Source: Candidatus Parcubacteria bacterium (GTDB lineage Bacteria; Patescibacteriota; Patescibacteriia; UBA1558; GWA2-36-10). Taken from it: a stretch of 64,000 nt of DNA. The translations under genes were made by a program, and so were the position numbers. The notes beneath the pieces are model-generated. The model made no database searches. It had not been told where the DNA came from and worked only from the letters and a program-made list of their open reading frames with translations. This document shows, piece by piece, positions 4,753 through 47,100 of this stretch (positions are counted from its first letter, which is position 1; every line of letters starts with the position of its first letter). The DNA lies in contig JABHSK010000002.1 of assembly GCA_018669975.1 (NCBI GenBank), positions 73,293-137,292 on the forward strand. Direction: 5' to 3'.

Positions 4753-5916
4753 TTAGTGTTCACAAGAACAACCTGAACAACCACTCTGTTTTTTATCTGA
4801 AGCATTTAAAAATTCTGAATCCTTCATTTTACAACCCTGCCAGGTAGCCTGGGAAAAATGTGGATGCGTAGACAATTCATCCCAAATTTTATATAGCGGT
4901 TTCTGTAAAATATTTCCAAAACCAGCATGGTTAAAATCACAAGGAGAAATATCACCATATGGTGATGCATAAAAATAACTAGTACCCCCTGAACAACCAG
5001 TGCTACGATAGCTGGTAGCATAGGCATAGATTAAAACTCCCGGATAACTTTTATCTTTATTATATTTTTTACTAAATGTTATCATCTCCTCTATCCAGGC
5101 TCGATTATCTATCAAATCATCACGACTTTTGGCGCGACCGACTGGTACCATGTCAAAAACAAGCACTTCATGCACGCCCAGCTCCTGGCCCAACTCAATT
5201 ATTGCTTTAAGTCGACCGCTACGGAAATCATCTTCACTAATAGTGCACGATAAACCAACCGTTAAGCCAGCTTTTTTAGCTGCTTGTATACCAGCTAGTG
5301 CTTTATCAAAGAGCCCATCCTTGCGTCGCCTTTTATCATGTTCCTCACGATTAGCTGAATCCATAGAGATATAAACTCCATCTAAGCCAGACTGCTTCAA
5401 CTGCTCAGCTTTTTCTTCCAAAAACCATCCGTTAGTAAATAAAATAGCAATTGATAAATCTTTATCAATGCTAGAAACTATTTCTGGTAAATCATCCCTA
5501 AGCAAAGGCTCGCCACCAACTATATTGATAACTGACACACCTAATTCTTGAGCATCCTCTATTAGCTTCTTACTTTGATCTAGGGTCAAAATTTGCCTAC
5601 TCCTATCATCTGCTGATTCAAAGAAACTACAGTGCTCACAATTAACATTACAAGTGTCATTAACTGCAAAGCTCATTAAATTGGGGAAATTACGATTTTG
5701 AATAGTAGAAAAAACTGACCTAGAAAATAAATTAACAGCTGGTTTACTATAAACTGCTGGCGTAGAAAGAGAATACACTGGGTAACCATCACGCCAATGA
5801 ACAACCTTATTATGATTGAGGTAAATTTTATAAACTCGCTCAAAAAAATCTATTGAATATTGAATTGATCTAGTAGAAATAAACCATTTGAATCTAAACT
5901 TGGAAAAAATACTCAT
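4753..5916 (-). CDS. radical SAM enzyme with C-terminal SPASM/twitch-like Cys-rich domain
   Basis: CNVNCEHC (CxxxCxxC) radical-SAM cluster motif, a NIVGGEPLL glycine-rich motif, and a C-terminal C-x12-G-x4-C segment (CSGGTSYFYASPYGDISPC) followed by a CSGCSCEH Cys cluster. Confidence 0.8.
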   Translation of the reverse strand: MSIFSKFRFKWFISTRSIQYSIDFFERVYKIYLNHNKVVHWRDGYPVYSLSTPAVYSKPAVNLFSRSVFSTIQNRNFPNLMSFAVNDTCNVNCEHCSFFESADDRSRQILTLDQSKKLIEDAQELGVSVINIVGGEPLLRDDLPEIVSSIDKDLSIAILFTNGWFLEEKAEQLKQSGLDGVYISMDSANREEHDKRRRKDGLFDKALAGIQAAKKAGLTVGLSCTISEDDFRSGRLKAIIELGQELGVHEVLVFDMVPVGRAKSRDDLIDNRAWIEEMITFSKKYNKDKSYPGVLIYAYATSYRSTGCSGGTSYFYASPYGDISPCDFNHAGFGNILQKPLYKIWDELSTHPHFSQATWQGCKMKDSEFLNASDKKQSGCSGCSCEH

Positions 5917-12683: not shown

Positions 12684-13319
12684 TTATATTTTACCAACTA
12701 AATCTAATCCTGGTTTAAGCGTATCTTCACCTGGCTCCCAATTAGCTGGGCAAACCTGATCACCATATTTATGAACAAATTGAGCGGCCTGTAGCTTACG
12801 AAGTAACTCTTTGCTACTACGGCCAATGCCATTGTCATGTACTTCCATAGTCTTAAGATGTCCTTCTGGATCGATAATAAAAGTACCACGCAAAGCAATA
12901 CCTTCTTCCTCAATCAAAACTCCATACTTATTGCTAATCTCATGAGTAGGATCAGCTACCATAGGAAATTTAATTTTCTTAATAGTTTCACTATCATCAT
13001 GCCAAGCTTTGTGCACAAAAGCTGTATCAGTAGAAACTGACAAAACTTCAGCATTTAATTTTTTGAGTTCTTCATAGCGATCAGCCATGTCACCCAACTC
13101 AGTTGGACAAACAAAGGTGAAGTCTGCTGGGTAAAAAAATAGTATCACCCACTTACCTTTATAATCTTCCAATTTTATCTTCTTAACTTGATCCTCATAA
13201 TAGGCCTCAGCTTCAAACTCTGGTGCTAATTGCCCTATCTCTGGCGTGCAGTTTAAAAACATATCGTCATCACAACAAGAGTCTCCACCACAACACATAT
13301 TATCTTTTTTTTCTTCCAT
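12684..13319 (-). CDS. typical 2-Cys peroxiredoxin (AhpC/TSA family) with possible N-terminal Cys-rich extension
   Basis: FFYPADFTFVCPTE peroxidatic-Cys motif and C-terminal GDQVCPANW resolving-Cys motif. The first 20 residues (MEEKKDNMCCGGDSCCDDD) may be an artefact if the true start is the internal Met (MFLNCT...). Confidence 0.85.
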   Translation of the reverse strand: MEEKKDNMCCGGDSCCDDDMFLNCTPEIGQLAPEFEAEAYYEDQVKKIKLEDYKGKWVILFFYPADFTFVCPTELGDMADRYEELKKLNAEVLSVSTDTAFVHKAWHDDSETIKKIKFPMVADPTHEISNKYGVLIEEEGIALRGTFIIDPEGHLKTMEVHDNGIGRSSKELLRKLQAAQFVHKYGDQVCPANWEPGEDTLKPGLDLVGKI

Positions 13320-13350
13320 AATTTTATGTATTATTTTTTATTAAAATTAA

Positions 13351-13965
13351 TTATTTTGCTGCTTGATAAAATTCAGCTACTCTTGACCAATTGATCACCT
13401 GCCAAAAATTATCTACAAATTCAGCTCGTTTATTCTGATATTTTAAATAATAGGAATGTTCCCAAACATCGATGCCTAAAATAGGCTTTTGTCCCAATGA
13501 ATATGGACTATCTTGATTACCAGTCTTACTGATTTGCAATTTACCATCAGCTACCACTAGCCAGGCCCAGCCTGAACCAAAAACTGTCATAGCAGCTTGA
13601 GTAAACTCTTCCTTGAATTTATCCCAATTGCCAAACGTTTTTTCAATATCAGCCAGTAAATCCCCTTCTGGTTTTACATTTTTATTATCTGGTCCCATAA
13701 TCTGCCAAAAAAATCCATGATGGACATGTCCACCGCCATGGTTTCTAACAGCTAGCCTAATTTCCTCTGGCACACTGTCCAAATCTGCTAAAATTTCTTC
13801 GGCTGATTTCTTGTATAAATCTGGATACGCTTCCAGGGCTTTATTAAAGTTAGTTGTATAAGCAACATGATGCTTATCATGATGAATTATCATTGTCTCT
13901 TCATCAATATATGGCTCCAATGCATTATAATCATAAGGCAATGAAGGTGTTTCAAATTTTTTCAT
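13351..13965 (-). CDS. Fe/Mn superoxide dismutase
   Basis: HHDKHH and DVWEHSYY motifs. Length 204 aa. Confidence 0.9.
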   Translation of the reverse strand: MKKFETPSLPYDYNALEPYIDEETMIIHHDKHHVAYTTNFNKALEAYPDLYKKSAEEILADLDSVPEEIRLAVRNHGGGHVHHGFFWQIMGPDNKNVKPEGDLLADIEKTFGNWDKFKEEFTQAAMTVFGSGWAWLVVADGKLQISKTGNQDSPYSLGQKPILGIDVWEHSYYLKYQNKRAEFVDNFWQVINWSRVAEFYQAAK

Positions 13966-13976
13966 GAATTTATTGA

Positions 13977-14561
13977 TTAATATTCTTCAGATTTAACCTG
14001 ATAATAGGCTTGCGGATGATCACAAGACGGACATTCATCTGGCGGAGTCTCACCAACATGAATATAGCCACACTCGCGACACACCCAAACTGTTTGTTTT
14101 CCCTTTTTAAATAATGTTTTCTTTTTTAATTGCTCCAATAATTTTTTATAACGCTCTTCATGGTGTTCCTCAGCAATAGCTATTGATTCGAATCTCTTGG
14201 CAATGTCATCCAAGTCTTCCTCCTTGGCTACCTTAGCAAATCCTGGATACATGTCTGTATATTCATAATTTTCACCATCAATAGCAGACTGTAAGTTCTC
14301 TTCTGTGTTACCGTAAATAGTCCCCGCCTTGGCCTCAACATACATCTCTGAAAAATCCTCGCCTAATTTTTCCTTGAGCTCTTGAATGTGCTCAAACAAT
14401 CGTTTAGCATGAACCTTTTCTTGCTCAGCTGTTTCTGCAAAAACAGCAGCAATCTGCTCATATCCTTCCTTTTTAGCAACCTTTGAATAATAGGCATACT
14501 TATTTCTAGCCTGTGACTCACCAATAAAAGCCTTTACTAAATTGTCTAATGTTTTTTTCAT
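13977..14561 (-). CDS. rubrerythrin
   Basis: N-terminal ferritin-like di-iron helices (E...H pairs) and a C-terminal rubredoxin-like CRECGYIH...CPSCDHP. Confidence 0.85.
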
Positions 14562-14567
14562 AATAAT

Positions 14568-15587
14568 TTATTTTACCTTATTTATATGTTTATTCTTTAT
14601 AAAAGCTTTAATATTGTCAATTGTAGTATCAAGAATCCTCTGCAGTGCTTCATCAGAATTAAAAGCATTATGAGGCGTCACCAGCACACGAGGATCTTGG
14701 ATCAACAGATGACCCTGCAAAATGGTTTTCAAATCACAGCTTTTTTGAAAAGGTTTAGTTAGAAGCTCTTTTTCTTCTTTAATAAAACATTCCTCCTCTA
14801 AAACATCTAGACCTGCACAGGAAATAATTTTTTTATCTAACGCGGTAATTAAAGCTTGAGTTTCAACTAGGCCGCCACGTGCTGTATTAATTAAACAGGC
14901 TCCTTTTTTAATCAATTTAATATTACCTTTATTTATTAGGTGGTGAGTCTTTTTATTATATGGTGCATGTAGACTAATAACATCGGAGTTAGCTAGAAGT
15001 TTTTCCAAACTTACATACTTAATACCCAACTGCTTAGCTAACTTAGCATCTTTTCGAGTATCGGCTACAATTACTTTCATTTCAAACCCTTTGGCCATTC
15101 TGGCTACATGTTGACCGATGTGCCCCAAACCAACAATGCCTAAAGTTTTTCCCTTTAAATCAAAGCCCCGGACATCAGATAAATCAAAATCATAATTTTT
15201 CATCTTCTCTATTGACCTTGGTACATGTCGAGATAAGGACAGCATTAAAGCCATAGTATGCTCAGCTACGGTATTTTCTCCATAAAAAGGTACATTGCTA
15301 ATTGGAATTTTTTTAGATCGACAAGTTTCTAAATCAATATGATCAAAACCAGTAGACATGGTGGTAATAAACTTTAAATTTGATAACTGATCTATAATCT
15401 GTTTATCCACTTGAGAATATATAAATACTGCCAATACATCTGAATTCTTTATCTTCGGCAGCATAGCTTTGGTCAGTGGCTTTGAAAAAAAGTTGAGGGA
15501 TAAATTTTTAATATCACTTAATTTTTCTTCTAGATATTTTTGTTCCCACTTTTCTGTTTCCAAAAAACTTATATTTAACTTTGGCAT
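14568..15587 (-). CDS. D-isomer-specific 2-hydroxyacid dehydrogenase (NAD-binding)
   Basis: GIVGLGHIGQHVARMAKGFEMKV Rossmann motif. Catalytic-domain layout of D-LDH/PGDH/GDH-like enzymes. Confidence 0.8.
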   Translation of the reverse strand: MPKLNISFLETEKWEQKYLEEKLSDIKNLSLNFFSKPLTKAMLPKIKNSDVLAVFIYSQVDKQIIDQLSNLKFITTMSTGFDHIDLETCRSKKIPISNVPFYGENTVAEHTMALMLSLSRHVPRSIEKMKNYDFDLSDVRGFDLKGKTLGIVGLGHIGQHVARMAKGFEMKVIVADTRKDAKLAKQLGIKYVSLEKLLANSDVISLHAPYNKKTHHLINKGNIKLIKKGACLINTARGGLVETQALITALDKKIISCAGLDVLEEECFIKEEKELLTKPFQKSCDLKTILQGHLLIQDPRVLVTPHNAFNSDEALQRILDTTIDNIKAFIKNKHINKVK

Positions 15588-15600
15588 GGTTTTATATTAT

Positions 15601-15972
15601 TTAATATTTATTTTTACACTTGTTACAATCCCCAAAAAAATTAACCTGATAATTATTAATCTTACCTGCTTTAACATTTTTTGGGAAATTTATACTTTTA
15701 TCAAAATTAGGCATATCAAAAACCTGTTTACAATCCTGGCAAATAAAATGTGTATGATGATCTAAATCTGCATCATAGTGACTGACGTCTGAAACAATCT
15801 CTTTAACTAGATTTTCCTGCGAAAAGTTCTTGAGAATTCTATAAACAGTAGCCTTACTAATAGTAGGCAATTTTTTTCTTATTGCTAAATAGACTTGATC
15901 AACAGACGGGTGTGTTTTAACACCTTGCAAATGATCTAAAATCACTTGTTTTTGTATAGTATTTCTTTGCAT
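15601..15972 (-). CDS. Fur-family transcriptional regulator, likely PerR
   Basis: Winged-helix N-terminus, HHTHFICQDCKQVFD and a C-terminal CNKC metal site. Heads an operon of peroxide/superoxide defence genes. Confidence 0.8.
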   Translation of the reverse strand: MQRNTIQKQVILDHLQGVKTHPSVDQVYLAIRKKLPTISKATVYRILKNFSQENLVKEIVSDVSHYDADLDHHTHFICQDCKQVFDMPNFDKSINFPKNVKAGKINNYQVNFFGDCNKCKNKY

Positions 15973-16077: not shown

Positions 16078-16638
16078 TTATTCAAAAATTATTGGCACAG
16101 TTAACTCATCAGCATTAGCTGGTAATCCAGATGGGTTGTCTTTTTTTAATACCAAAGTACCCTTACCCTCTGTTGGACCCTGATATTCTAGTTCTGCTTT
16201 AAATTCAACAAAATCTTCTGTCATCCAATCTGATTGAGCGGTAGCTATGCCCTCGGCTATTACTTGCCCCTTATACAAAACAACTACTGGGAAATCTCCT
16301 TCAAAAAACCAATACCCTCTAGCCTGCCCCTCTAATACCAATGGATTGCTAATACCTTGATTTGGTCGTGGTAAATCCAATCTAATTAAATCTTCCTTAG
16401 CCAAAGCATTACCAATGTCCTCTGTAAACATACTACCATCCTCGGCCTGACATTTTCTAGGATAAGATTCCATCACAGCCAGCCCAGCAGATAAACAATC
16501 ATCAAAGTCACTTATCACTGGCTTGTCTTTTTCATTCTCAATATACCTCTGTCCAAAAATAACACCATAAACTACAGCCGCTATTACTAAGATAATAACA
16601 AAAAATATTTTTAAAAATCCTCTATTGTTCACTTTCAT
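16078..16638 (-). CDS. membrane-anchored / secreted hypothetical protein
   Basis: N-terminal TM or signal-anchor (FLKIFFVIILVIAAVVYGVIF) and a soluble C-terminal domain. Confidence 0.4.
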   Translation of the reverse strand: MKVNNRGFLKIFFVIILVIAAVVYGVIFGQRYIENEKDKPVISDFDDCLSAGLAVMESYPRKCQAEDGSMFTEDIGNALAKEDLIRLDLPRPNQGISNPLVLEGQARGYWFFEGDFPVVVLYKGQVIAEGIATAQSDWMTEDFVEFKAELEYQGPTEGKGTLVLKKDNPSGLPANADELTVPIIFE

Positions 16639-16779
16639 AATATCTAATTAATTATTATTTACTATAAGTACATTAAGGTTAACATCTTTAGACTATATGG
16701 CAAACCCTTGACACAATTTTTTATGCATGCTAACGTCAAATGTTTACAATTGAATATCTTTCAATGAAGCAATGAACGA

Positions 16780-16833
16780 CTATCTATATTTGGACGCTTG
16801 GATAGTCGGGAGCTAGTAGCGTAACCGGCATTG
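16780..16833 (+). ncRNA. copy 1 of a tandemly duplicated ~55-nt element (candidate small RNA / cis-regulatory leader)
   Basis: ctatctatatttggacgcttggatagtcgggagctagtagcgtaaccggcattg, followed at 16850-16880 by a terminator-like hairpin (cacca...tggtg plus T-run). Confidence 0.35.
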
Positions 16834-16930
16834 AGTATTTTTATACTCTCACCAAAAACGCCTAGCCAAATGGTGTTTTTTGTAAATAAAAGCCCTTTTT
16901 ACAACACAAAATATTCGATGAGACAAAGAA

Positions 16931-16987
16931 CTATAGTCTATATTTGGACGCTTGGATTATAGGGAGTCAGTAGCGTAACCGGCATTG
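16931..16987 (+). ncRNA. copy 2 of the tandemly duplicated ~55-nt element
   Basis: ctatagtctatatttggacgcttggattatagggagtcagtagcgtaaccggcattg (about 90% identical to copy 1), followed at 17008-17042 by the hairpin acgtctca-gattaa-tgaggcgt plus T-run. Confidence 0.35.
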
Positions 16988-17139
16988 TTTTTTGCTGTGT
17001 TTAAAATTGGCCAAAAACGTCTCAGATTAATGAGGCGTTTTTGTTTCTCATAAAATGCTTTAGTCAGTAAAGACCCAATAATATTCATGCTCTACCTGGA
17101 TAACCTAGGTAGAAAACCATACCCTCAGGAGGTAAAATC

Positions 17140-17862
17140 ATGAAGCGTTTCTTTATCCTCACCCTAGTCCTCGTCACCAGCATCGTCTTTGTTGGTTGCG
17201 ATCAGAGTGATCCGATCAGTGTGACTGTCCCTGACCTTGACGAAACTGGCCCGTCTATCACTGCTGACGAAGTTCATACTGAATTCCTGACTGAGCTTTA
17301 TGCTAATCAGGATTTTGCCAAGATGAACAAGTCGGCTCAGTCCCATGATGCTACCAGGGCTGCCAATGATATTTTGGCTCGCTATGGCGAGGCTCCGATG
17401 ACCGAAAAGCAGGTCGCTGATGCTATTGAAGAAGGTCGTCGTATGGCCAAGATGGATCCCGAAGCACTGATCGCTAGCATCCTTGATGCTGACGACCTTG
17501 TCTGGTGGCACCGCTTTGCTGATGAAGCTACCGCTCAGAATTGCCGCCAGATCTACACGGCTCACTGCCGTAGCTATGGTGCTCCCGTTGCTGGTAGCAC
17601 TCTCGATACCATGATTGGCGTGGCTATGTCTTCAGGTGAATTCTGGGGCGAATATCGCAAGAATGACATGCCTCGCTATCACAATCCCTATGTGCCCCAG
17701 CAGGGCGAAAAGGGTTGGAGAGGATTCTTCCGCTTTGTCGTGGCTGTGGCTGTTGACGGTGGCGCCGGTGCTGCTTCGGCTGCCGGTGGACCGATTGTTT
17801 CGGGTGTTGTTGGTGGTCTGGCCAGCACTGGTGCTGATCATATCATCTTTGGTGGTGACTGA
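17140..17862 (+). CDS. lipoprotein with Gly-rich C-terminal tail (GC-richer, likely horizontally acquired)
   Basis: Lipobox LVTSIVFVGC. C-terminal GGAGAASAAGGPIVSGVVGGLASTGADHIIFGGD. Strong GGAGG Shine-Dalgarno. Codon composition visibly GC-richer than the flanks. Confidence 0.5.
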   Translation: MKRFFILTLVLVTSIVFVGCDQSDPISVTVPDLDETGPSITADEVHTEFLTELYANQDFAKMNKSAQSHDATRAANDILARYGEAPMTEKQVADAIEEGRRMAKMDPEALIASILDADDLVWWHRFADEATAQNCRQIYTAHCRSYGAPVAGSTLDTMIGVAMSSGEFWGEYRKNDMPRYHNPYVPQQGEKGWRGFFRFVVAVAVDGGAGAASAAGGPIVSGVVGGLASTGADHIIFGGD

Positions 17863-17923
17863 AATTAGTATCACCAAAAAAACAACCCCCAAAACTACTA
17901 GTCACTTTCATTGGAGGTAAAAA

Positions 17924-18133
17924 ATGCCAAACCCTGTTCTTTACATCGTCTTTAGTGTTTTGGGTGCCACCATTGGGCACCTGATACTAAAGAAAGATAA
18001 AATTTCTACTGGCCTGGGCATTGGCATAGGCCTATCGATTGGCTTTGCCATCACCCAAGCAAGTCTTTGGTATCTCTTAGGTGTTCCGACCTTCGGCTTC
18101 TTCCTGCTTCAACGCAGGAATAAAGCCAAGTAA
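17924..18133 (+). CDS. small two-TM membrane protein
   Basis: 69 aa with two hydrophobic helices and a GGAGG Shine-Dalgarno. Same GC-richer module as the lipoprotein. Confidence 0.4.
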   Translation: MPNPVLYIVFSVLGATIGHLILKKDKISTGLGIGIGLSIGFAITQASLWYLLGVPTFGFFLLQRRNKAK

Positions 18134-18140
18134 CGAACAA

Positions 18141-18176
18141 CCCCATCCCGACAAAGGGATGGGGCTTTTTATTTTT
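18141..18176 (+). terminator. rho-independent terminator
   Basis: ccccatccc-gacaaa-gggatgggg followed by cttttttatttttt. Confidence 0.65.
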
Positions 18177-18192
18177 TATAATTTAAAAATAT

Positions 18193-18957
18193 TTAGTGAC
18201 CATGCGGCACAACCTGCACCACTAGATACATCAACGCCGCTCCTATTATCAGCCAAATAGAGTGTATTAGAATCTTCTTGGGATTTTCCTCATGGTGCAA
18301 CTCTGGAATCAAATCAGCTGTAGCTAGATAAATAAAATTTCCAGCCGCAAAAGCAACTACCAGTGGAATAATATGCGCAAAGTTATTACCAAAACCATAA
18401 AATAACAAAGCGCCCATTACAGCTACCAATGCTGTCAACAAATTATAAACAATAGCTTTAGCCTTTGATAGTCCAGCATAAAGTAAAACTCCAAAATCAG
18501 ATATCTCCTGTGGTATTTCATGAAGCAACACAGCTACGGTTACTGTTAGGCCGGCATGAAAATCCAACATAAAAGCTGAAGCAATTAATGCACCGTCTAC
18601 AAAATTATGAATACCGTCACCAATCAAATTAATAACTGCTAATTTTTTCTTATTTTCAACAGATGGCTTCCCATGCTCCTCACAATGACAATGATGCCAG
18701 TGCACAATCCTTTCCAAAAGAAAGAAAAATATTATACTAACTAATACCACCGTCAAAGTAATTCGTACGTCAAATTGACTTTCCTCTATAGCTTCTGGTA
18801 ATAAATCTAGGAAAGCTACTGCCAATAGAGAGCCTGCCGCTAAGCTAATTAATGCCCTAAGAAAGCTACGTTTATTTTCTTTTTTAAATATTAACAACAC
18901 GCCAATAAGGGATATTAGACTGACCAATAGTGTTGCTAAAATTATATTTATTAACAT
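18193..18957 (-). CDS. ZIP-family zinc/metal transporter (ZupT-like)
   Basis: HNFVDGALIA and HEIPQEISDFGVLL motifs. 8 TM helices and a His-rich loop HWHHCHCEEHG. Confidence 0.85.
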   Translation of the reverse strand: MLINIILATLLVSLISLIGVLLIFKKENKRSFLRALISLAAGSLLAVAFLDLLPEAIEESQFDVRITLTVVLVSIIFFFLLERIVHWHHCHCEEHGKPSVENKKKLAVINLIGDGIHNFVDGALIASAFMLDFHAGLTVTVAVLLHEIPQEISDFGVLLYAGLSKAKAIVYNLLTALVAVMGALLFYGFGNNFAHIIPLVVAFAAGNFIYLATADLIPELHHEENPKKILIHSIWLIIGAALMYLVVQVVPHGH

Positions 18958-19274: not shown

Positions 19275-20456
19275 ATGAAAAATAATACTAAATTAGGTTT
19301 TACACTCGTCGAGCTCCTAGTAGTTATAGCCATCATGGGCGTTCTAGCATCCATATCTTTTGTTGCTTTAAATACAGTTAGAGACAAAGCAAATGATGCC
19401 CATAGAATTTCTGAACTAACTCAAATGAGAAAAGCACTAGAAATATACTATCAAGCGCATGGTTACTATCCACAATTTTCAACTCCTAGTTGGGGCACCT
19501 CCAAACCCTTTGACGATTGGGAGATTGCACGAAACTGGGGTGATATTATTGACACACTGCATGGCGAAGGTATTTTTCTAGAAACTGCTGAGTTAGATAA
19601 TTCTGGATACAATATGGCTGTTCAAGACCCTCTTTATGATCCAACTAGTCATGCAAATTCCTACCAATATATGCCTTCGGGTGACCATGCAGATCCAACT
19701 CCAGATTCTAAACCACAAAATTTTCGTATCAGAGTTAAGCTAGAAAATTTAAATAACCCAATATTAGACAATAGTTATGATGGTCCATTTTTCTACTATG
19801 ATGAAGATCATGAGGGCTCATATAATAACCAACTTAATTCCTGCACATCAGACTTAGGATACTGGTGCATAGGTCCTCCGGAAAACTTTGAAACTTTTGT
19901 TTCAGGAAAACCCGTCATCTATCTTTATCCAACTGAAAAAACAGCCGTGTCTGTTGAAGTTAATACTAAGAAAATAACTGAATCAATACCAGATTATAAT
20001 GGTGGTTGGAATGTCACAGCTTACCCAGATGGCACTATTGAAAATTCAGTTGACGGACAAACTTACCCTTATTTATTCTGGGAAGGCCCATCCTACAAGC
20101 CGCGGGTAGATAGAACCAAGGGTTTTGTCATAGCCACAAATCAAGTAGAATCATTCTTGGCTGAAAAACTAGGTGCTCAAGGTTTAAAGGCAAAAGAATA
20201 CGATGAGTTTATAGAGTTTTGGGCTCCTCGCATGAAGAACAAGGATTATGTCTATGTTTATTTCATGCCGCAAGTAGATTATGATAAATTAATCCCAATG
20301 GACATTTCCCCTCAGCCAGACACTGTAATTAGAACTTATATGTTATTCAAATCTTTAGATGAGCCTATTGATGTCGCTCCGCAAAAACTATCTGCGCCAG
20401 AGAGAATTGGCTTTACTGTAGTAGAATGGGGTGGAGATCTCAAAGAATTAAAATAA
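19275..20456 (+). CDS. type IV pilin-like / pseudopilin protein with prepilin N-terminal methylation motif
   Basis: KLGFTLVELLVVIAIMGVLASI (G/FTLxE class-III signal) plus a large C-terminal globular domain. Confidence 0.7.
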   Translation: MKNNTKLGFTLVELLVVIAIMGVLASISFVALNTVRDKANDAHRISELTQMRKALEIYYQAHGYYPQFSTPSWGTSKPFDDWEIARNWGDIIDTLHGEGIFLETAELDNSGYNMAVQDPLYDPTSHANSYQYMPSGDHADPTPDSKPQNFRIRVKLENLNNPILDNSYDGPFFYYDEDHEGSYNNQLNSCTSDLGYWCIGPPENFETFVSGKPVIYLYPTEKTAVSVEVNTKKITESIPDYNGGWNVTAYPDGTIENSVDGQTYPYLFWEGPSYKPRVDRTKGFVIATNQVESFLAEKLGAQGLKAKEYDEFIEFWAPRMKNKDYVYVYFMPQVDYDKLIPMDISPQPDTVIRTYMLFKSLDEPIDVAPQKLSAPERIGFTVVEWGGDLKELK

Positions 20457-21619: not shown

Positions 21620-23554
21620 TTATTGAGGTACAAAATCCTCAGTTGGTCGGATGTCTATATACTTGCTTGGTGGGCAAGTAGCCCTATTTAAAAGTAAACT
21701 ATCGTGATATGGCTTACCATTTCGATCGTAGAAATAAGCTTTACTATTATTCCCCTCTCCCCATCCTGGCACCAAAGTAGGCGGCACGCAAAGGTTATAA
21801 TATCTACTCCCATCAGCTGTAATAGAAATATTTCTATAAGGAAGATTAAATATCTCTATTGGACCTGCGTTTAAAAGCATAGCTAAAGGAGACTTTATAT
21901 TGTCTCCACTTATTGGATTTAAATCTGAATAAACATTGTCTGTTAAATTTAATACTCCTATATGTTCCATATGTTGAAAATCAGCCTCGAAGACAGCATC
22001 AACAGAATAATTCAGAATACCTGGCTCTACATCTAAATCTCGATCTAACTCTGCGGCACTTATATTTTGTACGTCCAGTGCCCTAGCTAATATATCATCA
22101 CAATCCTGTGGTATAGCTCTACGCATCAACAAACTATCATAATATGGTGTACCATTGTTATCATAAAAATATAACTTGCGCTCATAGGGAGGTAGGTCTC
22201 TAACAGGAATGACTGTTTTTGGCACACAAATGGTATGACTATTGCCATCAATATCAGAAATGTTAACTATACGTGCTGGTACAGTTTTTTGTTCCTGTTG
22301 AGCATCCACATGATCCACTTCTATAACTAAAGGGGCTTTCTTACCAATATCACCATATCCTGAGCCAAGATTAAAATAATTTCCTCCTAAATCCAGGGTT
22401 CCATAATAGGTCCAATAGGTATTAAAGTCCACCAAGAACTTGATCTCTGGTGCATAATGAGGAAAGTCTCGCACTGTCAAATTAGCGTTAGCATCACCAA
22501 TATCCTCAATATCTAGAGCCCTATCTAAAACAGTATTACAATCCACTGCCAATGCTCTTTGTGTCAATAAAGTATCGTGATAAGGTGTGCCGTTTTTATC
22601 ATAAAAATAGATCACTGGCTCAGGATAGAGCAGAGAATGCCCCATTAATTCGGTGGCTGGTAAACAAATATTATATTCTTGGCCTTCAAAATCAGAAATA
22701 TTAATTATCCTAGCTGGCACAGTTGTACTCTCATTCATTGACCCACCTGAAATACTCACTGCTAAAGGAGAGGTTATATTATTAGGCATGCCATTGCCAC
22801 CACCAAAATTATTTATACTCATATCTAAAAAACCAAAATCATGTGTATAATCCTGAAAGTCTGTATGAAACTTTGCATGAATTTGATGGTTGGTCTCCAC
22901 CATAGTAACTAAATTAACTACGGCTGAACTAATCTCCTCTATGTCTAGAGAATTTGCTAAAATTTCATCACAATTTTTAGATAGTACTCTTTGACCAAGC
23001 AACGCATCATAATAAGGATTTCCCTCAACATCATAATAATAAGAAAAGCTATCATTTGGCCAATCATTTGGCCCTGCAGTTTCAGTAGTTGGCATACACA
23101 AATTATATTCCTGGCCCTCTAGACTAGAAATATGAATAATACGTGATGGAATAGTCTGAAGCCCAGAAGCAGAATGGCTCAATTTTACTTGTAATGGGCT
23201 AGTACTAGAAGTGTATACTGGGCTACCTTGATGATAATAATTTGTTTCTATATCTAACCTTCCTAAATTAGTATCATCTATTATAAATTCTGCGCTAGGC
23301 CTAATCTGACCCTCCCAGTAAGCCATGCTAACCTTGGCATCACCAATATCTTCAACCATTAAAGGTGTAGGAACAACCCTAGGTAAAGGTACAAAGTTTC
23401 TACTTTTAGTAATCCTCATGGGCTTTTTTACCATACCCATAGCCAGGCCGGCAAAATTAAGCCCTAACATAAAAGCAGATATCATCATTATACCGATGAC
23501 TACTTTTTGCGCAGTGGCCACTTGTCCTTTGACCTTTGTTTTTGCTTTTTTCAT
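21620..23554 (-). CDS. membrane-anchored secreted protein with four tandem ~130-aa Cys-pair repeats
   Basis: N-terminal TM anchor, then four repeats of (I/V)P(A/S)RI(I/V)NIS-EGQEYN(L/I)C-P-TE ... YFYD-NG-PY(Y/H)D(S/T)LL-(Q/R)RA...CD-(I/V)L-RALD(I/V)(E/Q)(D/N)I. Confidence 0.55.
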   Translation of the reverse strand: MKKAKTKVKGQVATAQKVVIGIMMISAFMLGLNFAGLAMGMVKKPMRITKSRNFVPLPRVVPTPLMVEDIGDAKVSMAYWEGQIRPSAEFIIDDTNLGRLDIETNYYHQGSPVYTSSTSPLQVKLSHSASGLQTIPSRIIHISSLEGQEYNLCMPTTETAGPNDWPNDSFSYYYDVEGNPYYDALLGQRVLSKNCDEILANSLDIEEISSAVVNLVTMVETNHQIHAKFHTDFQDYTHDFGFLDMSINNFGGGNGMPNNITSPLAVSISGGSMNESTTVPARIINISDFEGQEYNICLPATELMGHSLLYPEPVIYFYDKNGTPYHDTLLTQRALAVDCNTVLDRALDIEDIGDANANLTVRDFPHYAPEIKFLVDFNTYWTYYGTLDLGGNYFNLGSGYGDIGKKAPLVIEVDHVDAQQEQKTVPARIVNISDIDGNSHTICVPKTVIPVRDLPPYERKLYFYDNNGTPYYDSLLMRRAIPQDCDDILARALDVQNISAAELDRDLDVEPGILNYSVDAVFEADFQHMEHIGVLNLTDNVYSDLNPISGDNIKSPLAMLLNAGPIEIFNLPYRNISITADGSRYYNLCVPPTLVPGWGEGNNSKAYFYDRNGKPYHDSLLLNRATCPPSKYIDIRPTEDFVPQ

Positions 23555-44021: not shown

Positions 44022-44153
44022 TATTTTTTTAAAAGATTTAACAGACCAAATGGTATTAAAAATGATAGTCAATGGAATCAAAATAATCAGGATGATAGCG
44101 TAGATCACCTGATAATCTTGTTTTAAAAATAGACTGGTTTTTTTCTTAGCCAT
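44022..44153 (-). pseudogene. 44-aa ORF encoding a signal-anchor TM helix, out of frame with and directly upstream of the histidine kinase (probable frameshifted kinase N-terminus)
   Basis: My own translation gives MAKKKTSLFLKQDYQVIYAIILIILIPLTIIFNTIWSVKSFKKI-stop. It ends 9 nt before the kinase TTG inside a T7/A4 homopolymer region. Its ATG overlaps the stop of the 1430-aa gene (ATGGCTAAG). Confidence 0.35.
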
Positions 44154-47100
44154 CTTGCGGGTCTATAGTTTCTTCTACTCTTTTACTACGATGCAACAGC
44201 ATGATAATCGCTAGTGCCAAAACAACTAGCAGCGCTGCACCAATCATATAATAAACTAACATACTATCAACACTGTCTTGTGTGGTAGTAGCATCAAAAT
44301 AATTATTAGCTGTTACCGCTTGAGCTCTCTTTACCAAAAATGATACTGGACTAGACTGTTTGACCACCTTACCGGTGTCATCATTAATTGTCACATAAAC
44401 TCTATGATGACCGTCTGTTAAGGACTCCTTAATTCCGTATGACCAATTACCACTAGCGTCTGTCTGTGTAGTCATTACCAAAGGCAAGTCACTATATAGG
44501 AAAAGTGTAATCCAAGTATTTGGCTGTGCGACACCCTTGAGTTCAACCCCCTGCTCTGTATTAGCCACATCTTGAACCTCAAAATCTTTATCAATCTTAT
44601 CGGATTTGACCTTAGGTTGTTCAATGATACCGCCTGATAGCATTACTTCGTCTAAGGCTGTGCGCTCCTTTTCCAACACACCCTCTCCCAAAGGATTATA
44701 GCCATTATTGACCTCTGTCCCATCAGGATAACCATCGCCATCTGTGTCTGGATTATTTATATCAGTACCATAATACTCCTCTAAATCATCTGCCAAGCCA
44801 TCACCATCCGTATCAATGACCATGACTGCATTATTGATTATGGTCAAATTGTCTTCATCTTCTAAAATAGTCTCTTTTTGTGACTCTGCCAAAAACACCC
44901 TTGCATTTTCTGATGTCAACGGCAAAACGCCCAAATCAACACCCTTGTCAGTTAACTCTTGATTCAATTCAGCTATCGTCAGTGTCTGACCAATCAAAGG
45001 GTTGGCCATCTCTTCTATGGCTTCTTGCTGTTGTTGACCAATTACCAATCTATTAAGATAGATGTCACGCAATACTGATTGACACAAATCATCATCGTCT
45101 AACAGGCAGGCTACGCTGGCACCATATTTCTCCAGCAAGAAATTTGTACAGTCTTCACGATTAATTATTTCTTCAGATCGACACTCTAGGTCAACACGAG
45201 TCGTGTTGAGATAATCTTCACAACTAGCCTGATCATATATACCCTGCTCTATACAACTATCATCCAATAAATCAACCATGGCTCTAAATTCCTGACAAGT
45301 AGCCTGATTTGTAATGCCTACATCTAGACAACTAGTATATATACCAATTATTACCTCTGCATTTTCTGATATAGTCTCCCCGCTGTAATCAGACCCTCCT
45401 TGGCCACCATCACCACCTTGACCATCCTCACCACCTTGATTACCCACACCATTTAATATGGCAATCTCTAGCCTATTAGAATCAACTCGGAAACTATTCA
45501 CTCCTGGGTCTATATAACGAGCAAAAATAAAGTACTCGCCGTTTGGAATAGTCAATGATGAATCTGTTCTTATTCTATTGAGATTATAAGAAACAAAAAT
45601 ATGTGGTGTGTCTAGATTATTATTTTCTATTTCTCGAATTTGTGGAGTAAGTGCTTCTAACTCCTCTTCTGGAAAAACGTCAACAGCTTGAAAGGGAAAA
45701 CTATAAAGTTCCCCTGAACTCTGATCTTCCAATATAAGCTGTAAGCCTTGCTGTATATAAAAATTAGAACTCACGAAAATGGACGTTGTCTCATCTGACA
45801 ACATCTCTGGAACATTGTGCATCCTTATTATAATATTCCCTGCTGTTGGCTGAGGATCTACCAACGCACCATTTTGTAAAGAAAAATATACCTTGTTACT
45901 CTCTAAACCTTGATATGGTGAATCAGGAACAGTCCCTACATTAATAATATATAAATAATAATCACCATCTTCCAGTTGAACATTACCCTGTGTGTCTTCT
46001 AAGACAATAAAGTATATCTTGGGAACATACACATCAGAATAATCTGACTGCGATACCCCTAAACCTTCCATAGTTTGCCAATTTGAAGCTTTTATACTGG
46101 GGTCTATTGGATGATGTTCACCTTCGGAGTTAATAGCCCTACCTTGAATGCGAATGTTTGATAGGCTAGTTAAAAGTGGGAAATCTATAAAACGACCTTC
46201 AGATGATTCTGTGATATGGGCTTGTCCCAATTCAAAAGTAACATCTGGTACTATAATCTCATCATTATCTACTCTGACATTAGAAAAAATATTACTTAAA
46301 ATTACCTCTCCTCCATCTAATAAGATAATTTTAACTAGAATTTTATAATCGCCGTCCGATGCATTCTCCATATGCCAAGCAGCATTATAATAATTATCAC
46401 TCTCTGAATATATACCAGTCAAGGTTGCCACATCTACTCCATTATTTATATCTTCAATAATAACCATAAAATTAGCAATGTCTGAAGGTAAAAAATTTGG
46501 CGTGGCATTTAACACTAAAGCTCCATAACTGTCAATATACTGTTCAGTAGAATTTATCTGCCATTCACCATCGCCACCATTGAATATAGTAGTAGTGATT
46601 GTATCACTCACCACATCAACATCACCTATAATGGCCTTGGCGTATACCCTATAATTTCTATCCGTAAACTGCGTAGTGTCAATATTAACTGCGTATTGTT
46701 GACTAACCTCTGCTGCACTGTATGTATACACCTCTCCGCTAATAGTGTCCTCCAATACAAACACGACATTCAAACCTGAAAAATTAGCTTCGGCTACCAA
46801 ATTAACTGAGCCTGACAAAGAGCCAGCTGGAACAAATAGCTCTAAGACCACATCATCTGGGTCTACGACAATTCCATTAGCTTGCACAAGAAAAGCAAAG
46901 GGCCTCTGAATAAAATCACCCTCGATATCCTCTGGTAATCCAGCACTAGCCGTCAGTGAATATGAACCCCCCACAAATGTGTCATCAATATCAATAGTAG
47001 CTGTCCAACTGTAACCATCGACATAATCAATGTCTAAAACGCCTGTAGTGATGGCGTGATCTGAGGAATTAGTAAATTCATATGTAAAACTAGGTGCATC

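What the first reader, a model, noticed from the sequence alone, without database searches (positions are those of the whole stretch)
16780..17045. Tandem duplicate of a ~55-nt structured-looking element, each copy followed by its own terminator hairpin, upstream of a GC-rich foreign-looking module
There are two ~90%-identical copies of the element (ctat..tatttggacgcttggat.gtcgggag.tagtagcgtaaccggcattg) about 150 bp apart. Each is followed within 20-30 nt by a hairpin plus a T-run. No ORF covers the region. This fits two tandem small-RNA genes, or a tandem riboswitch/attenuator leader for the lipoprotein gene downstream. I do not recognise the motif as any known riboswitch class.
Basis: seen in the sequence. 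Interest (0 to 1): 0.55.

Follow-up and report, generated by a model that had tools for sequence, protein, structure and literature searches.

The report
Tandem c-di-GMP-II riboswitches in CPR bacterium
The two repeated elements are two complete copies of an already known RNA sensor for the bacterial signal molecule c-di-GMP. They sit one behind the other in front of a two-gene operon of unknown function in an ultra-small (Parcubacteria/CPR) bacterium, so the kind of element is known and only the host and the controlled genes are new.

Summary
The interpretation "no known riboswitch class" is wrong. Both copies are full-length matches to Rfam RF01786, the c-di-GMP-II riboswitch aptamer (73.1 and 71.9 bits against a gathering score of 53.5; window 16756-16839 and 16910-16993, + strand). 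Each copy is followed by its own intrinsic terminator. One conserved promoter (16708-16736) lies upstream, and no credible ORF lies in between. Downstream are a 240-aa lipoprotein-like gene and a 69-aa membrane-protein gene, both unusually GC3-rich.

The window comes from a Candidatus Parcubacteria MAG. The same tandem arrangement precedes homologues of the same genes in Komeilibacteria, Parcubacteria and other Patescibacteria contigs. First units resemble first units in other genomes more than they resemble their own second unit, so the duplication is old and maintained. Twenty-two CPR aptamers show strong covariation in P3 and P2a and an invariant pseudoknot.

Aptamer segments are complementary to the 5' strands of the terminators. 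This predicts OFF switches: c-di-GMP causes termination (about 0.65 confidence). That polarity is opposite to the characterised Clostridioides difficile class II switches.

Tandem c-di-GMP-II doublets with separate expression platforms were already catalogued by Sherlock et al. 2022. Verdict: a new member of a known kind, of modest interest.

The parts
16708..16736 (+). Promoter: -35 TTGACA (16708-16713), 17-nt spacer, -10 TAACGT (16731-16736). The predicted transcription start is about 16743-16745.
   Evidence: Read. The same TTGACA-N17-TAnnnT arrangement sits at the same distance upstream of aptamer 1 in L005, L008 and L010. The consensus scanner did not list it because the -10 matches only 4 of 6 positions.
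16756..16839 (+). c-di-GMP-II aptamer, unit 1. P1 is UUCAAUG/CAUUGAG, P2a is AGC/GCU, P3 is the 8-bp helix CGACUAUC/GAUAGUCG, and the pseudoknot is GG+ACGC (16792-16797) with GCGU+CC (16819-16826).
   Evidence: RF01786, 73.1 bits, E 1.5e-14, model positions 1-84 of 84. The structure is supported by covariation in 22 CPR aptamers.
16811..16867 (+). Predicted antiterminator of unit 1. Aptamer nucleotides AGCUAGUAGCGUA (16811-16823) pair with AACGCCUAGCC (16857-16867), which is the 5' strand and loop of terminator 1.
   Evidence: RNAduplex gives -11.5 kcal/mol, rank 1 of 20 against non-cognate terminators. This pairing is present in the unconstrained MFE, and the terminator replaces it when the aptamer is enforced. 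This is an inference; it was not tested experimentally.
16854..16881 (+). Intrinsic terminator of unit 1: stem AAAAACGCC/GGUGUUUUU, 9-nt loop, U-run 16876-16881.
   Evidence: Orthologous terminators are present in L010, L016 and L025.
16910..16993 (+). c-di-GMP-II aptamer, unit 2. P1 is CGAUG/CAUUG plus A-U extensions. P2a is GAC/GUC, which is compensatory relative to unit 1. P3 is CUAUAGUC/GAUUAUAG. The pseudoknot is the same as in unit 1.
   Evidence: RF01786, 71.9 bits, E 3.3e-14, model positions 1-84 of 84. It is 95% identical to unit 2 of L010 but only 81% identical to unit 1 of the window.
16919..17024 (+). Predicted antiterminator of unit 2. Aptamer UGAGAC (16919-16924) pairs with GUCUCA (17019-17024) in the 5' strand of terminator 2.
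   Evidence: RNAduplex gives -8.9 kcal/mol. The pairing forms in the co-transcriptional snapshot that ends before the terminator's 3' strand. Orthologues have longer versions: L010 has 10 bp, L025 has 11 Watson-Crick bp, and L016 has two helices (5 and 6 bp) interrupted by one mismatch. In the window itself, 6 bp is no better than chance.
17012..17049 (+). Intrinsic terminator of unit 2: 13-bp stem CAAAAACGUCUCA/UGAGGCGUUUUUG, 6-nt loop, tail UUUCUC.
   Evidence: Terminator scan. The downstream segment 16988-17055, which holds the hairpin, folds at -18.2 kcal/mol with z -3.65.
17091..17113 (+). 9-bp hairpin ending 13 nt upstream (about 15 nt) of the ribosome-binding site. Its function is unknown, and it may or may not belong to the control system.
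   Evidence: Hairpins of different sequence occur in the same place before the homologous gene in L010, L009, L007/L020 and L008/L022.
17127..17862 (+). RBS AGGAGG (17127-17132) and the regulated gene 1 (17140-17862), which encodes 240 aa. It has a lipoprotein-type signal peptide (…FVGC20). The predicted structure is all-helical, with a Gly/Ala-rich C-terminal helical hairpin.
   Evidence: ORF. No Pfam or NCBIfam family matched. Homologues at 52-71% identity occur only in CPR or uncultured sources. Cys20 is invariant in the alignment. The AlphaFold model has pLDDT 73.9 and no significant PDB match.
17924..18133 (+). Regulated gene 2, a 69-aa predicted two-helix membrane protein that always accompanies gene 1.
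   Evidence: ORF. It follows the 240-aa homologue in L003, L005, L008, L010-12, L016, L020, L022, L025 and L032. Its GC3 is 0.50.
18141..18173 (+). Terminator at the end of the operon: 9-bp stem with 7 GC pairs, followed by CTTTTTATTT.

Best explanation
The region is the 5' leader of a two-gene operon (240-aa lipoprotein-like protein plus 69-aa membrane protein) in a Candidatus Parcubacteria genome. The leader holds two complete class II cyclic-di-GMP riboswitches in series. Transcription starts at one promoter (16708-16736). RNA polymerase then meets unit 1 (aptamer 16756-16839, terminator about 16854-16881) and unit 2 (aptamer 16910-16993, terminator 17012-17049). Each unit decides independently between termination and read-through.

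In each unit a piece of the aptamer is complementary to the 5' strand of that unit's terminator. Without ligand this antiterminator can form and polymerase reads through. When c-di-GMP is bound, the aptamer (P1/P2a/P3/pseudoknot) holds that piece, the terminator hairpin forms and transcription stops. Both units are therefore most likely OFF switches. The operon is expressed only when both are unliganded, which gives tighter repression and a steeper ('pseudo-cooperative') response to c-di-GMP than one switch would give.

What is shown: family membership, the architecture, conservation, and covariation of the aptamer. What is inferred: c-di-GMP as the ligand (by homology, about 0.85), control by transcription termination (about 0.85), and OFF polarity (about 0.65).
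For: Identity and structure of the aptamers:
- Rfam RF01786 matches are full length, at 73.1 and 71.9 bits against a gathering score of 53.5, and beat the other members of clan CL00127.
- In 22 distinct CPR aptamers, 86.8% of cells are paired against 29-40% when partners are slid. All 8 P3 pairs show changes on both sides. P2a is 100% paired, with AU/GC/GU alternation. The covariation score is 0.408 against 0.189 in shuffles, with 0 of 500 shuffles as high.
- The two window copies differ by a compensatory change in P2a (AGC/GCU against GAC/GUC) and in P3.
- The pseudoknot pairs are intact. Relative to the Rfam consensus GCAC/GUGC they read ACGC/GCGU, which is two double changes that keep pairing.

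Terminators and promoter:
- Terminators are shown.
- A single conserved promoter lies upstream, and no promoter-like site was found on the + strand between the units.

Conservation:
- Tandem pairs lie upstream of homologues of the same genes in L005/6, L008, L010/11, L016, L020, L022 and L025.
- Doublets or triplets with 130-229 nt spacing are the dominant form in 39 held loci.
- Unit 1 and unit 2 have separate orthologues.

OFF polarity:
- For unit 1, the free MFE contains the antiterminator and no terminator. Enforcing the aptamer gives the terminator.
- Across 21 units, the aptamer-to-terminator-5'-strand duplex averages -11.2 kcal/mol for cognate pairs against -9.3 for non-cognate pairs, with mean z -1.87 against shuffles.
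- The longest Watson-Crick complement is larger for cognate than non-cognate pairs, with 0 of 5000 permutations as high. Clear covarying examples are AAUGAGGCG/CGCCUCAUU, AAUGAGACGUU/AACGUCUCAUU and CUAAUGAGG/CCUCAUUAG.
- The terminators start 14-32 nt after the aptamer in most units. A bound aptamer therefore cannot occlude them, which is what an ON switch would need.

Precedent:
- The concept of independently acting tandem riboswitches, and the existence of c-di-GMP-II doublets and triplets, come from PMC9481103.
Against: - No experiment was done and no transcript data were available.
- For the window's own two units, the contiguous antiterminator complementarity (6 nt) is not better than chance when taken alone. 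Support comes mainly from the interrupted helix in unit 1 and from the orthologues.
- For unit 2, the full-length MFE keeps the very stable terminator whether or not the aptamer is enforced, so any switching would have to be kinetic.
- All characterised class II switches of C. difficile are ON switches (PMC11477304).
- The pseudoknot sequence differs from the class consensus and never varies among the CPR aptamers. This set therefore offers no covariation for the pseudoknot, and ligand specificity is not proven.
- No GGDEF, EAL or HD-GYP gene was seen in the 64-kb window, so c-di-GMP synthesis by this organism is not shown.
Confidence: 0.62

Rival explanations
1. Same tandem c-di-GMP-II riboswitches, but acting as ON switches: c-di-GMP binding prevents termination, as in Clostridioides difficile. 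The operon would then be induced at high c-di-GMP.
For: All characterised class II c-di-GMP riboswitches in C. difficile are transcriptional ON switches that control adhesins, pili and a response-regulator system (PMC11477304). In the full-length fold of unit 2, the unliganded alternative structure (GUCAGU…AACCGGCA with UGCUGUGUU…AUUGGC) leaves the terminator intact. That is what the ligand-free state of an ON switch looks like.
Against: The terminators do not overlap the aptamers; the gaps are 17 and 21 nt in the window and 14-32 nt in most homologous units. I found no element that a bound aptamer would release to block the terminator. In many orthologous units the aptamer's own 5' segment is a perfect 8-11-nt complement of the terminator's 5' strand, which is the OFF design. 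Unit 1 behaves as OFF in constrained folding.
Confidence: 0.2
2. The aptamers belong structurally to the c-di-GMP-II class, but the CPR subtype senses a different ligand, such as another cyclic or linear dinucleotide. This would parallel the way some c-di-GMP-I variants sense cGAMP.
For: All 22 CPR aptamers carry the same non-consensus pseudoknot, ACGC/GCGU instead of GCAC/GUGC. In the solved class II structure one guanine of the ligand forms a minor-groove triple with an A-U pair of the triple helix (PMC7583470), and in the CPR subtype the A-U pair of this helix sits at a different position. No c-di-GMP-making enzyme was seen in the window. Rfam holds two variant families of suspected altered specificity in the same clan, and for each aptamer a lower-scoring hit from that clan was suppressed.
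Against: RF01786 itself is the best-scoring clan member, 18-20 bits above threshold. Nearly all highly conserved consensus positions are kept, including GA, UAUUUGG, GGAG, AGU and AACCGGC. The pseudoknot changes are compensatory, so they preserve the helix. Genes annotated as diguanylate cyclases are reported in ultra-small-organism MAGs, which include Patescibacteria (PMC9938205).
Confidence: 0.1
3. The two units are two independent small-RNA genes. The short terminated transcripts would be the functional products and would act in trans.
For: Each unit ends in its own terminator, so short RNAs of about 140 nt and about 300 nt would be made whenever termination occurs. Trans-acting terminated riboswitch transcripts are known for other classes (from my own knowledge: SreA/SreB in Listeria).
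Against: There is only one promoter, upstream of unit 1, and it is conserved. No promoter-like site lies on the + strand between the units. In every one of about 40 loci the elements lie upstream of, and co-oriented with, genes of the same few families. This is the signature of cis-regulation. The family is a curated cis-regulatory riboswitch.
Confidence: 0.04
4. A recent, functionally irrelevant local duplication of one riboswitch.
For: The units are direct repeats, 82% identical over 74 nt. In one lineage (L005/L020) the two units are 92% identical, so duplication or gene conversion does recur.
Against: Window unit 2 is 95% identical to L010 unit 2 and 83% to L016 unit 2, but 81% to window unit 1. 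Unit 1 is 87-88% identical to the unit 1 of L010, L008 and L014. The regulated proteins of these loci are only 39-60% identical. Both copies keep full aptamer structure through compensatory changes, and both keep their own terminators.
Confidence: 0.03

Closest known systems
Tandem ('pseudo-cooperative') c-di-GMP-II riboswitch doublets and triplets catalogued by Sherlock et al. 2022 (RNA Biol 19:1059; PMC9481103)
   Same: They use the same aptamer class. The architecture is also the same: two or three complete riboswitches in series without an intervening ORF, each with its own expression platform. A steeper response to c-di-GMP is predicted for both.
   Different: Most of the 59 doublets and 9 triplets reported there lie upstream of a surface-anchor protein gene (COG4932) in Paraclostridium and close relatives. 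Here the host is a CPR/Patescibacteria bacterium and the genes are an uncharacterised lipoprotein and membrane-protein pair. The predicted polarity here is OFF. I could not check whether any CPR example is in their list, because no supplement is held.
Class II c-di-GMP riboswitches of Clostridioides difficile (Cdi2 series; Lee et al. 2010; reviewed in PMC11477304)
   Same: They belong to the same Rfam family, RF01786, and have the same P1/P2/P3/pseudoknot aptamer. They act in cis from 5' leaders of surface- and adhesion-related genes. They also control a response-regulator system (CmrRST), which parallels the receiver-like gene that most CPR copies control.
   Different: The C. difficile switches are ON switches, or in one case control a group I ribozyme. 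The CPR units look like OFF switches. The CPR pseudoknot reads ACGC/GCGU instead of GCAC/GUGC. The host phylum is different.
Triple-tandem c-di-GMP-I riboswitch Bc3-5 of Bacillus thuringiensis (PMC4759541)
   Same: Several complete c-di-GMP riboswitches lie in series in one 5' UTR.
   Different: The aptamer class is different (GEMM-I, RF01051), and so are the host and the regulated gene.
Tandem TPP riboswitches of Bacillus anthracis tenA (Welz and Breaker 2007, as summarised in PMC9481103)
   Same: Two independent OFF switches with terminators in series give a more digital response. This is the mechanistic model used here.
   Different: The ligand and the aptamer class are different.

Membership tests
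c-di-GMP-II riboswitch aptamer (Rfam RF01786) | Covariance-model score at or above the curated gathering score, over the full model | tested here: met
   73.1 and 71.9 bits against 53.5, model positions 1-84 of 84, E 1.5e-14 and 3.3e-14.
c-di-GMP-II riboswitch aptamer (Rfam RF01786) | P1, P2a and P3 helices supported by base pairing and covariation | tested here: met
   In 22 CPR aptamers, P3 is 98.9% paired with 8 of 8 pairs changed on both sides, P2a is 100% paired, and the inner 5 pairs of P1 are well kept. The covariation score is 0.408 against 0.06-0.13 for slid partners.
c-di-GMP-II riboswitch aptamer (Rfam RF01786) | Pseudoknot between the P3 loop and the 3' tail | tested here: met
   GG+ACGC pairs with GCGU+CC in all 22 sequences, 100% paired. 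These columns never vary within the CPR set, so they show no internal covariation. Relative to the Rfam consensus GCAC/GUGC they carry two compensatory double changes.
c-di-GMP-II riboswitch aptamer (Rfam RF01786) | Ligand-contacting nucleotides conserved | tested here: inconclusive
   Nearly all strongly conserved consensus positions match, including the AA of G..AACCGG. I could not obtain the nucleotide-level contact list, because the structure paper is not held. The position of the A-U pair in the pseudoknot helix differs from the consensus.
c-di-GMP-II riboswitch aptamer (Rfam RF01786) | Binds c-di-GMP selectively | not testable with these tools
   This needs in-line probing, ITC or a reporter assay.
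c-di-GMP-II riboswitch aptamer (Rfam RF01786) | Located in a 5' leader, co-oriented with the downstream gene, with an expression platform | tested here: met
   The promoter is at 16708-16736, a terminator follows each aptamer, and the RBS and ATG are at 17127/17140 on the same strand.
Pseudo-cooperative tandem riboswitch (Sherlock et al. 2022) | Two or more riboswitches of the same class in series with no intervening ORF | tested here: met
   Spacing is 154 nt, and only mechanical ORFs of 43 aa or fewer are present.
Pseudo-cooperative tandem riboswitch (Sherlock et al. 2022) | Each aptamer has its own expression platform (an intrinsic terminator between the aptamers) | tested here: met
   Terminator 1 is at about 16854-16881 and terminator 2 at 17012-17049.
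Pseudo-cooperative tandem riboswitch (Sherlock et al. 2022) | Steeper dose-response than a single unit | not testable with these tools
   This needs transcription or reporter titrations.
c-di-GMP-II-GAG / c-di-GMP-II-GCG variant families (clan CL00127) | Scores better on the variant model than on RF01786 | tested here: not met
   Clan competition kept RF01786 as the best hit for both copies, and the other clan hits scored lower and were dropped. Their actual scores were not shown.
Qrr small RNA (RF00378) | Score at or above the gathering score | tested here: not met
   19.4 bits against 50, E 0.57, at 16837-16947. This is a chance match.

The most novel reading that the evidence does not exclude
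CPR/Patescibacteria carry their own conserved subtype of the class II c-di-GMP riboswitch. It has a fixed ACGC/GCGU pseudoknot, is mostly arranged as doublets or triplets, and has OFF polarity. It defines a previously undescribed c-di-GMP regulon made of a receiver-like protein, a 240-aa lipoprotein with a Gly/Ala helical hairpin plus a small membrane partner (possibly a pore-former and immunity-like pair), and further small lipoproteins, all encoded on GC3-rich cassettes. In the boldest version, the organism makes no c-di-GMP itself and the riboswitches read a dinucleotide obtained from its host, or the subtype has shifted ligand specificity.
Probability: 0.15. Interest if true: 0.7.

Novelty: new member of a known kind. 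Interest (0 to 1): 0.33.

Why it matters
For riboswitch biology this is routine. The class has been known since 2010, and tandem arrangements were catalogued in 2022. The value lies with the host. Regulation and signalling in ultra-small CPR bacteria are almost unexplored, and I found no paper in the held library that links c-di-GMP riboswitches to CPR or Patescibacteria.

A conserved riboswitch gives a sequence-based handle on which genes respond to c-di-GMP in these uncultivated organisms. Those genes are a small set of surface or membrane proteins of unknown function and a receiver-like protein. If the OFF polarity is confirmed, it would show that the class II aptamer is used with both polarities in nature.

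The aptamers could also serve as native ligand-controlled expression parts for the genetic tools now being developed for Patescibacteria. The need for such tools is stated in PMC11665869.

Tried and rejected
- **Plasmid search.** A blastn of 16600-18200 against plasmids found no match.
- **Family searches on the regulated proteins.** Pfam and NCBIfam gave nothing for the 240-aa protein. The 69-aa protein gave only a sub-threshold DUF6418 hit.
- **Search for c-di-GMP enzymes.** A regex for GGDEF, HD-GYP and EAL motifs found nothing credible in the window. The 'GGEEF' hits in L015 and L018 appear to be an acetate-kinase-type motif (VHGGEEF; identified from my own knowledge, not checked against a family library), not diguanylate cyclases. 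Pfam on ten large window proteins found none.
- **A first antiterminator statistic.** The version that allowed G-U pairs was confounded by the U-runs. I replaced it with a Watson-Crick-only version restricted to the sequence before the U-run.
- **Papers not held.** Attempts to read Smith et al. 2011, Weinberg et al. 2017 and Lee et al. 2010 failed, so the nucleotide-level ligand contacts could not be checked. No supplement of Sherlock et al. 2022 is held.
- **Qrr.** The Qrr sRNA hit was rejected as chance.
Full report
**1. The observation**

The repeat is real. The repeat finder reports two copies of a 74-nt segment at 16760-16833 and 16914-16987, 82% identical and 154 nt apart.

Each copy is followed by a hairpin and a T-run. 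The second is a 13-bp stem at 17012-17043 with tail TTTCTC, found by the terminator scan. The first is a 9-bp stem AAAAACGCC/GGUGUUUUU with a 9-nt loop and a U6 run at 16876-16881. Folding shows it, but the scanner missed it because it allows loops of at most 8 nt.

No ORF of 50 aa or more overlaps 16639-17139 on either strand. The only ORFs there are six mechanical ones of 22-43 aa.

The downstream 'GC-rich module' is also real. The 1-kb window 17001-18000 has 48.5% GC, against 35.5% for the whole window. The gene 17140-17862 has GC3 0.50 and the gene 17924-18133 has GC3 0.50. Every neighbouring gene has GC3 between 0.22 and 0.32.

**2. What the elements are**

A scan of the whole window against Rfam 15 at gathering thresholds gives four hits: two tRNAs elsewhere, and two full-length matches to RF01786, the cyclic-di-GMP-II riboswitch aptamer. 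These are at 16756-16839 (73.1 bits, E 1.5e-14) and 16910-16993 (71.9 bits, E 3.3e-14). The gathering score is 53.5.

The alignments to the model show P1, P2a and P3 in both copies. Nearly all strongly conserved consensus nucleotides are matched: GA, UAUUUGG, CUU, GGAG, AGU and AACCGGC. The two copies differ from each other by compensatory changes in P2a (AGC/GCU against GAC/GUC) and in P3. This argues that both are kept functional.

The pseudoknot (P3 loop with 3' tail) reads GG+ACGC with GCGU+CC. The class consensus is GCAC/GUGC, so the helix is kept through two double substitutions.

A weak Qrr hit (19.4 bits against 50) is noise. The alternative reading it offered, a 'tandem riboswitch/attenuator leader for the lipoprotein gene', is right.

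**3. Source and conservation**

The 240-aa product of 17140-17862 is encoded on ENA and Logan metagenome contigs. An identical but N-terminally shorter (213-aa) annotated version of it is NCBI protein HOB10_01640 of a Candidatus Parcubacteria bacterium MAG. Only six other clusters are homologous (52-71% identity). One is from a Candidatus Komeilibacteria MAG, and none has a Pfam domain.

I fetched their loci and scanned them with Rfam. Tandem c-di-GMP-II pairs precede the homologous gene or its operon in L005/L006, L010/L011 and L003. L008 has one scored aptamer plus a second that carries a roughly 55-nt insertion in the P3 loop, visible by eye.

All these leaders share a TTGACA-N17-TAnnnT promoter at the same distance upstream of aptamer 1. 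In the window it is at 16708-16736.

An exact search for the CPR-type 3' core (GGAGNNAGTAGCGTAACCGGCATT) found 14 stretches in one-genome-per-species GTDB contigs. Almost all are Parcubacteria, Komeilibacteria or 'Patescibacteria group' MAGs. Three are titled 'uncultured Gammaproteobacteria'. The same search found 17 stretches in JGI/ENA metagenome contigs. Rfam confirms c-di-GMP-II aptamers at gathering score in 12 of the 14 genome loci. In the other two, L021 and L024, only the sequence pattern was found.

Across the 39 held locus entries, doublets or triplets with 130-229 nt spacing are the dominant form.

Pairwise identities show that unit 1 and unit 2 have separate orthologues. Window unit 2 is 95% identical to L010 unit 2 and 83% to L016 unit 2, but 81% to window unit 1. 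Window unit 1 is 87-88% identical to the unit 1 of L010, L008 and L014. The regulated proteins of these loci are only 39-60% identical. The duplication is therefore old and has been maintained. It is not a recent accident.

**4. Aptamer structure test**

I aligned 22 distinct CPR aptamers (A3) and counted pairs for the Rfam structure plus the pseudoknot.
- 86.8% of cells are paired, against 29-40% when partners are slid by 1-3 columns.
- The covariation score is 0.408, against 0.189 in column shuffles (0 of 500 as high) and 0.06-0.13 for slid partners.
- P3 is 98.9% paired, and all 8 pairs change on both sides.
- P2a is 100% paired, with GU, GC and AU alternatives.
- The inner five pairs of P1 are well kept.
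- The six pseudoknot pairs are 100% paired but never vary within this set.

**5. Mechanism**

The RBS (AGGAGG, 17127-17132) lies 78 nt beyond the tail of the second terminator. It is not sequestered by either unit, so control is by transcription termination.

For polarity I asked which part of each unit competes with the terminator. In unit 1, aptamer nucleotides 56-68 (AGCUAGUAGCGUA, 16811-16823) pair with AACGCCUAGCC (16857-16867), which is the terminator's 5' strand and loop. The duplex energy is -11.5 kcal/mol and ranks 1 of 20 against non-cognate terminators. The unconstrained MFE of unit 1 contains this antiterminator and no terminator. Enforcing the aptamer gives the terminator.

In unit 2, aptamer UGAGAC (16919-16924) is complementary to GUCUCA (17019-17024) in the terminator's 5' strand. 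This helix appears in a fold of the transcript that ends before the terminator's 3' strand. In the full-length fold the 13-bp terminator wins in both states. Unit 2 would therefore have to switch kinetically.

The comparative data are clearer than the window alone. In many units the aptamer's 5' segment (the end of P1, then GA, then P2a) is a perfect complement of the terminator's 5' strand, and the two covary:
- AAUGAGGCG/CGCCUCAUU in L017
- CAAUGAGGC/GCCUCAUUG in L027
- CUAAUGAGG/CCUCAUUAG in L015
- AAUGAGACGUU/AACGUCUCAUU in L025 unit 2, which is an orthologue of window unit 2

Cognate complementarity exceeds non-cognate: 7.1 against 6.2 nt, with 0 of 5000 permutations as high. Duplex energies are -11.2 against -9.3 kcal/mol, with mean z -1.87 against shuffles.

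In most units the terminators begin 14-32 nt after the aptamer, so a liganded aptamer cannot occlude them directly. All of this is the design of an OFF switch: ligand binding locks the competing segment into the aptamer, and the terminator forms.

Two caveats apply. The window's own 6-nt contiguous complements are not above chance when taken alone. Related sequences also inflate permutation statistics. I put OFF polarity at about 0.65.

Two independent OFF switches in series mean that read-through requires both to be unliganded. This is the 'pseudo-cooperative' arrangement, which gives a steeper, more digital response (PMC9481103).

**6. What is controlled**

Gene 2 (17924-18133) encodes a 69-aa protein that I read from its sequence as a two-helix membrane protein. 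It always follows gene 1. A terminator at 18141-18164 closes the operon.

In other CPR genomes the same riboswitch subtype controls a recurrent set of genes:
- a 59-aa protein
- a 130-146-aa receiver-like protein, with weak sub-threshold PF00072 matches (E 4.7e-6 and 2e-5)
- the 240-aa/70-aa pair
- two further small lipoprotein-like proteins

The window has only the 240-aa/69-aa pair. The function of these genes is unknown. A pore-former plus immunity-like pairing is only an idea.

**7. Comparison with what is known**

The aptamer is a member of RF01786 by every feature I could test. Ligand binding itself, and the exact ligand contacts, could not be tested, because the structure paper is not held.

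The tandem architecture is also known. Sherlock et al. 2022 list c-di-GMP-II among classes with multiple expression platforms. They report 59 doublets and 9 triplets, mostly upstream of a COG4932 surface-anchor gene in Paraclostridium and relatives.

Three things differ here:
- The host is a CPR bacterium. I found no paper in the held library that combines c-di-GMP riboswitches with CPR, Patescibacteria or Parcubacteria. Genes annotated as diguanylate cyclases have been reported in MAGs of ultra-small organisms, which include Patescibacteria (PMC9938205).
- The predicted polarity is OFF, whereas the characterised C. difficile class II switches are ON (PMC11477304).
- The pseudoknot variant is fixed, and the gene set is different.

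No GGDEF, EAL or HD-GYP gene is present in the 64-kb window. That says little about the whole genome.

**8. Verdict**

The finding is a correct observation of a known element. It is a new member of a known kind: tandem class II c-di-GMP riboswitches, in a new host and with new target genes. Interest is modest (0.33). The residual value is as an entry point to c-di-GMP signalling in CPR bacteria. There are also some unexplained side observations: the GC3-rich regulated cassettes and a conserved hairpin just before the RBS.

Noticed in passing
window 17140-18133; also L025 4078-5048, L022 5340-7315, L015 5698-6138, L020 2618-4389: The riboswitch-controlled genes are GC3-rich islands in AT-rich genomes. 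GC3 is 0.50 in the window and up to 0.80 in L025, against 0.2-0.3 in flanking genes. The chromosomal neighbourhood is nevertheless shared between the window, L016 and L010, which argues against independent recent insertions. The cassettes in L014 and L017 are not GC-rich. The cause is unknown.
   Followed up: partly
window 17091-17113: A 9-bp hairpin ends 13 nt (about 15 nt) upstream of the RBS of the 240-aa gene. Hairpins of different sequence occupy the same place before the homologous gene in L010, L009, L007/L020 and L008/L022, including where the gene is internal to an operon. It could be an mRNA-stabilising or processing element.
   Followed up: partly
window 12684-15972 (- strand): An oxidative-stress gene cluster in a CPR genome. 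It holds a peroxiredoxin-like protein (211 aa), an Fe/Mn superoxide-dismutase-like protein (204 aa), rubrerythrin (194 aa), a 2-hydroxyacid dehydrogenase (339 aa) and a Fur-family (PerR-like?) regulator (123 aa). The peroxiredoxin and superoxide-dismutase labels rest on my reading of the translations; neither protein was run against a family library.
   Followed up: no
window 21620-23554 (- strand): A 644-aa protein with no Pfam match. By eye in the translation it appears to contain four internal repeats of about 130 aa, each ending in a '…YFYD.NG.PY.D.LL..RA' motif.
   Followed up: no
L008 about 2826-2940, L022 about 5140-5271, L019 357-476: Some CPR aptamers carry a 35-55-nt insertion (an extra stem) in the P3 loop. 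Those in L008 and L022 fall below the Rfam gathering score and were found only by eye or by sequence pattern.
   Followed up: partly
L017, L019, L026: These contigs carry the CPR-type aptamer and the receiver-like gene, but they belong to MAGs titled 'uncultured Gammaproteobacteria'. L017 also encodes a protein with a T9SS sorting tail. This may be mis-binning, or the subtype may occur outside CPR.
   Followed up: no
window 19275-20456 and 44146-48438: A 393-aa protein with an N-terminal pilin-type methylation motif sits just downstream of the operon; it is also conserved next to the cassette in L016. Elsewhere in the window there is a 1430-aa protein with TSP3 and Big_13 repeats. The window is rich in surface proteins.
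   Followed up: no
between terminator 1 and aptamer 2: window 16895-16906; also 16744-16750: A short motif, (C)TTTTTACAAC / TTTACAA, lies about 12 nt before each aptamer. It recurs before both units in several genomes. It is probably a remnant of a duplication unit that included the transcript's 5' end.
   Followed up: no
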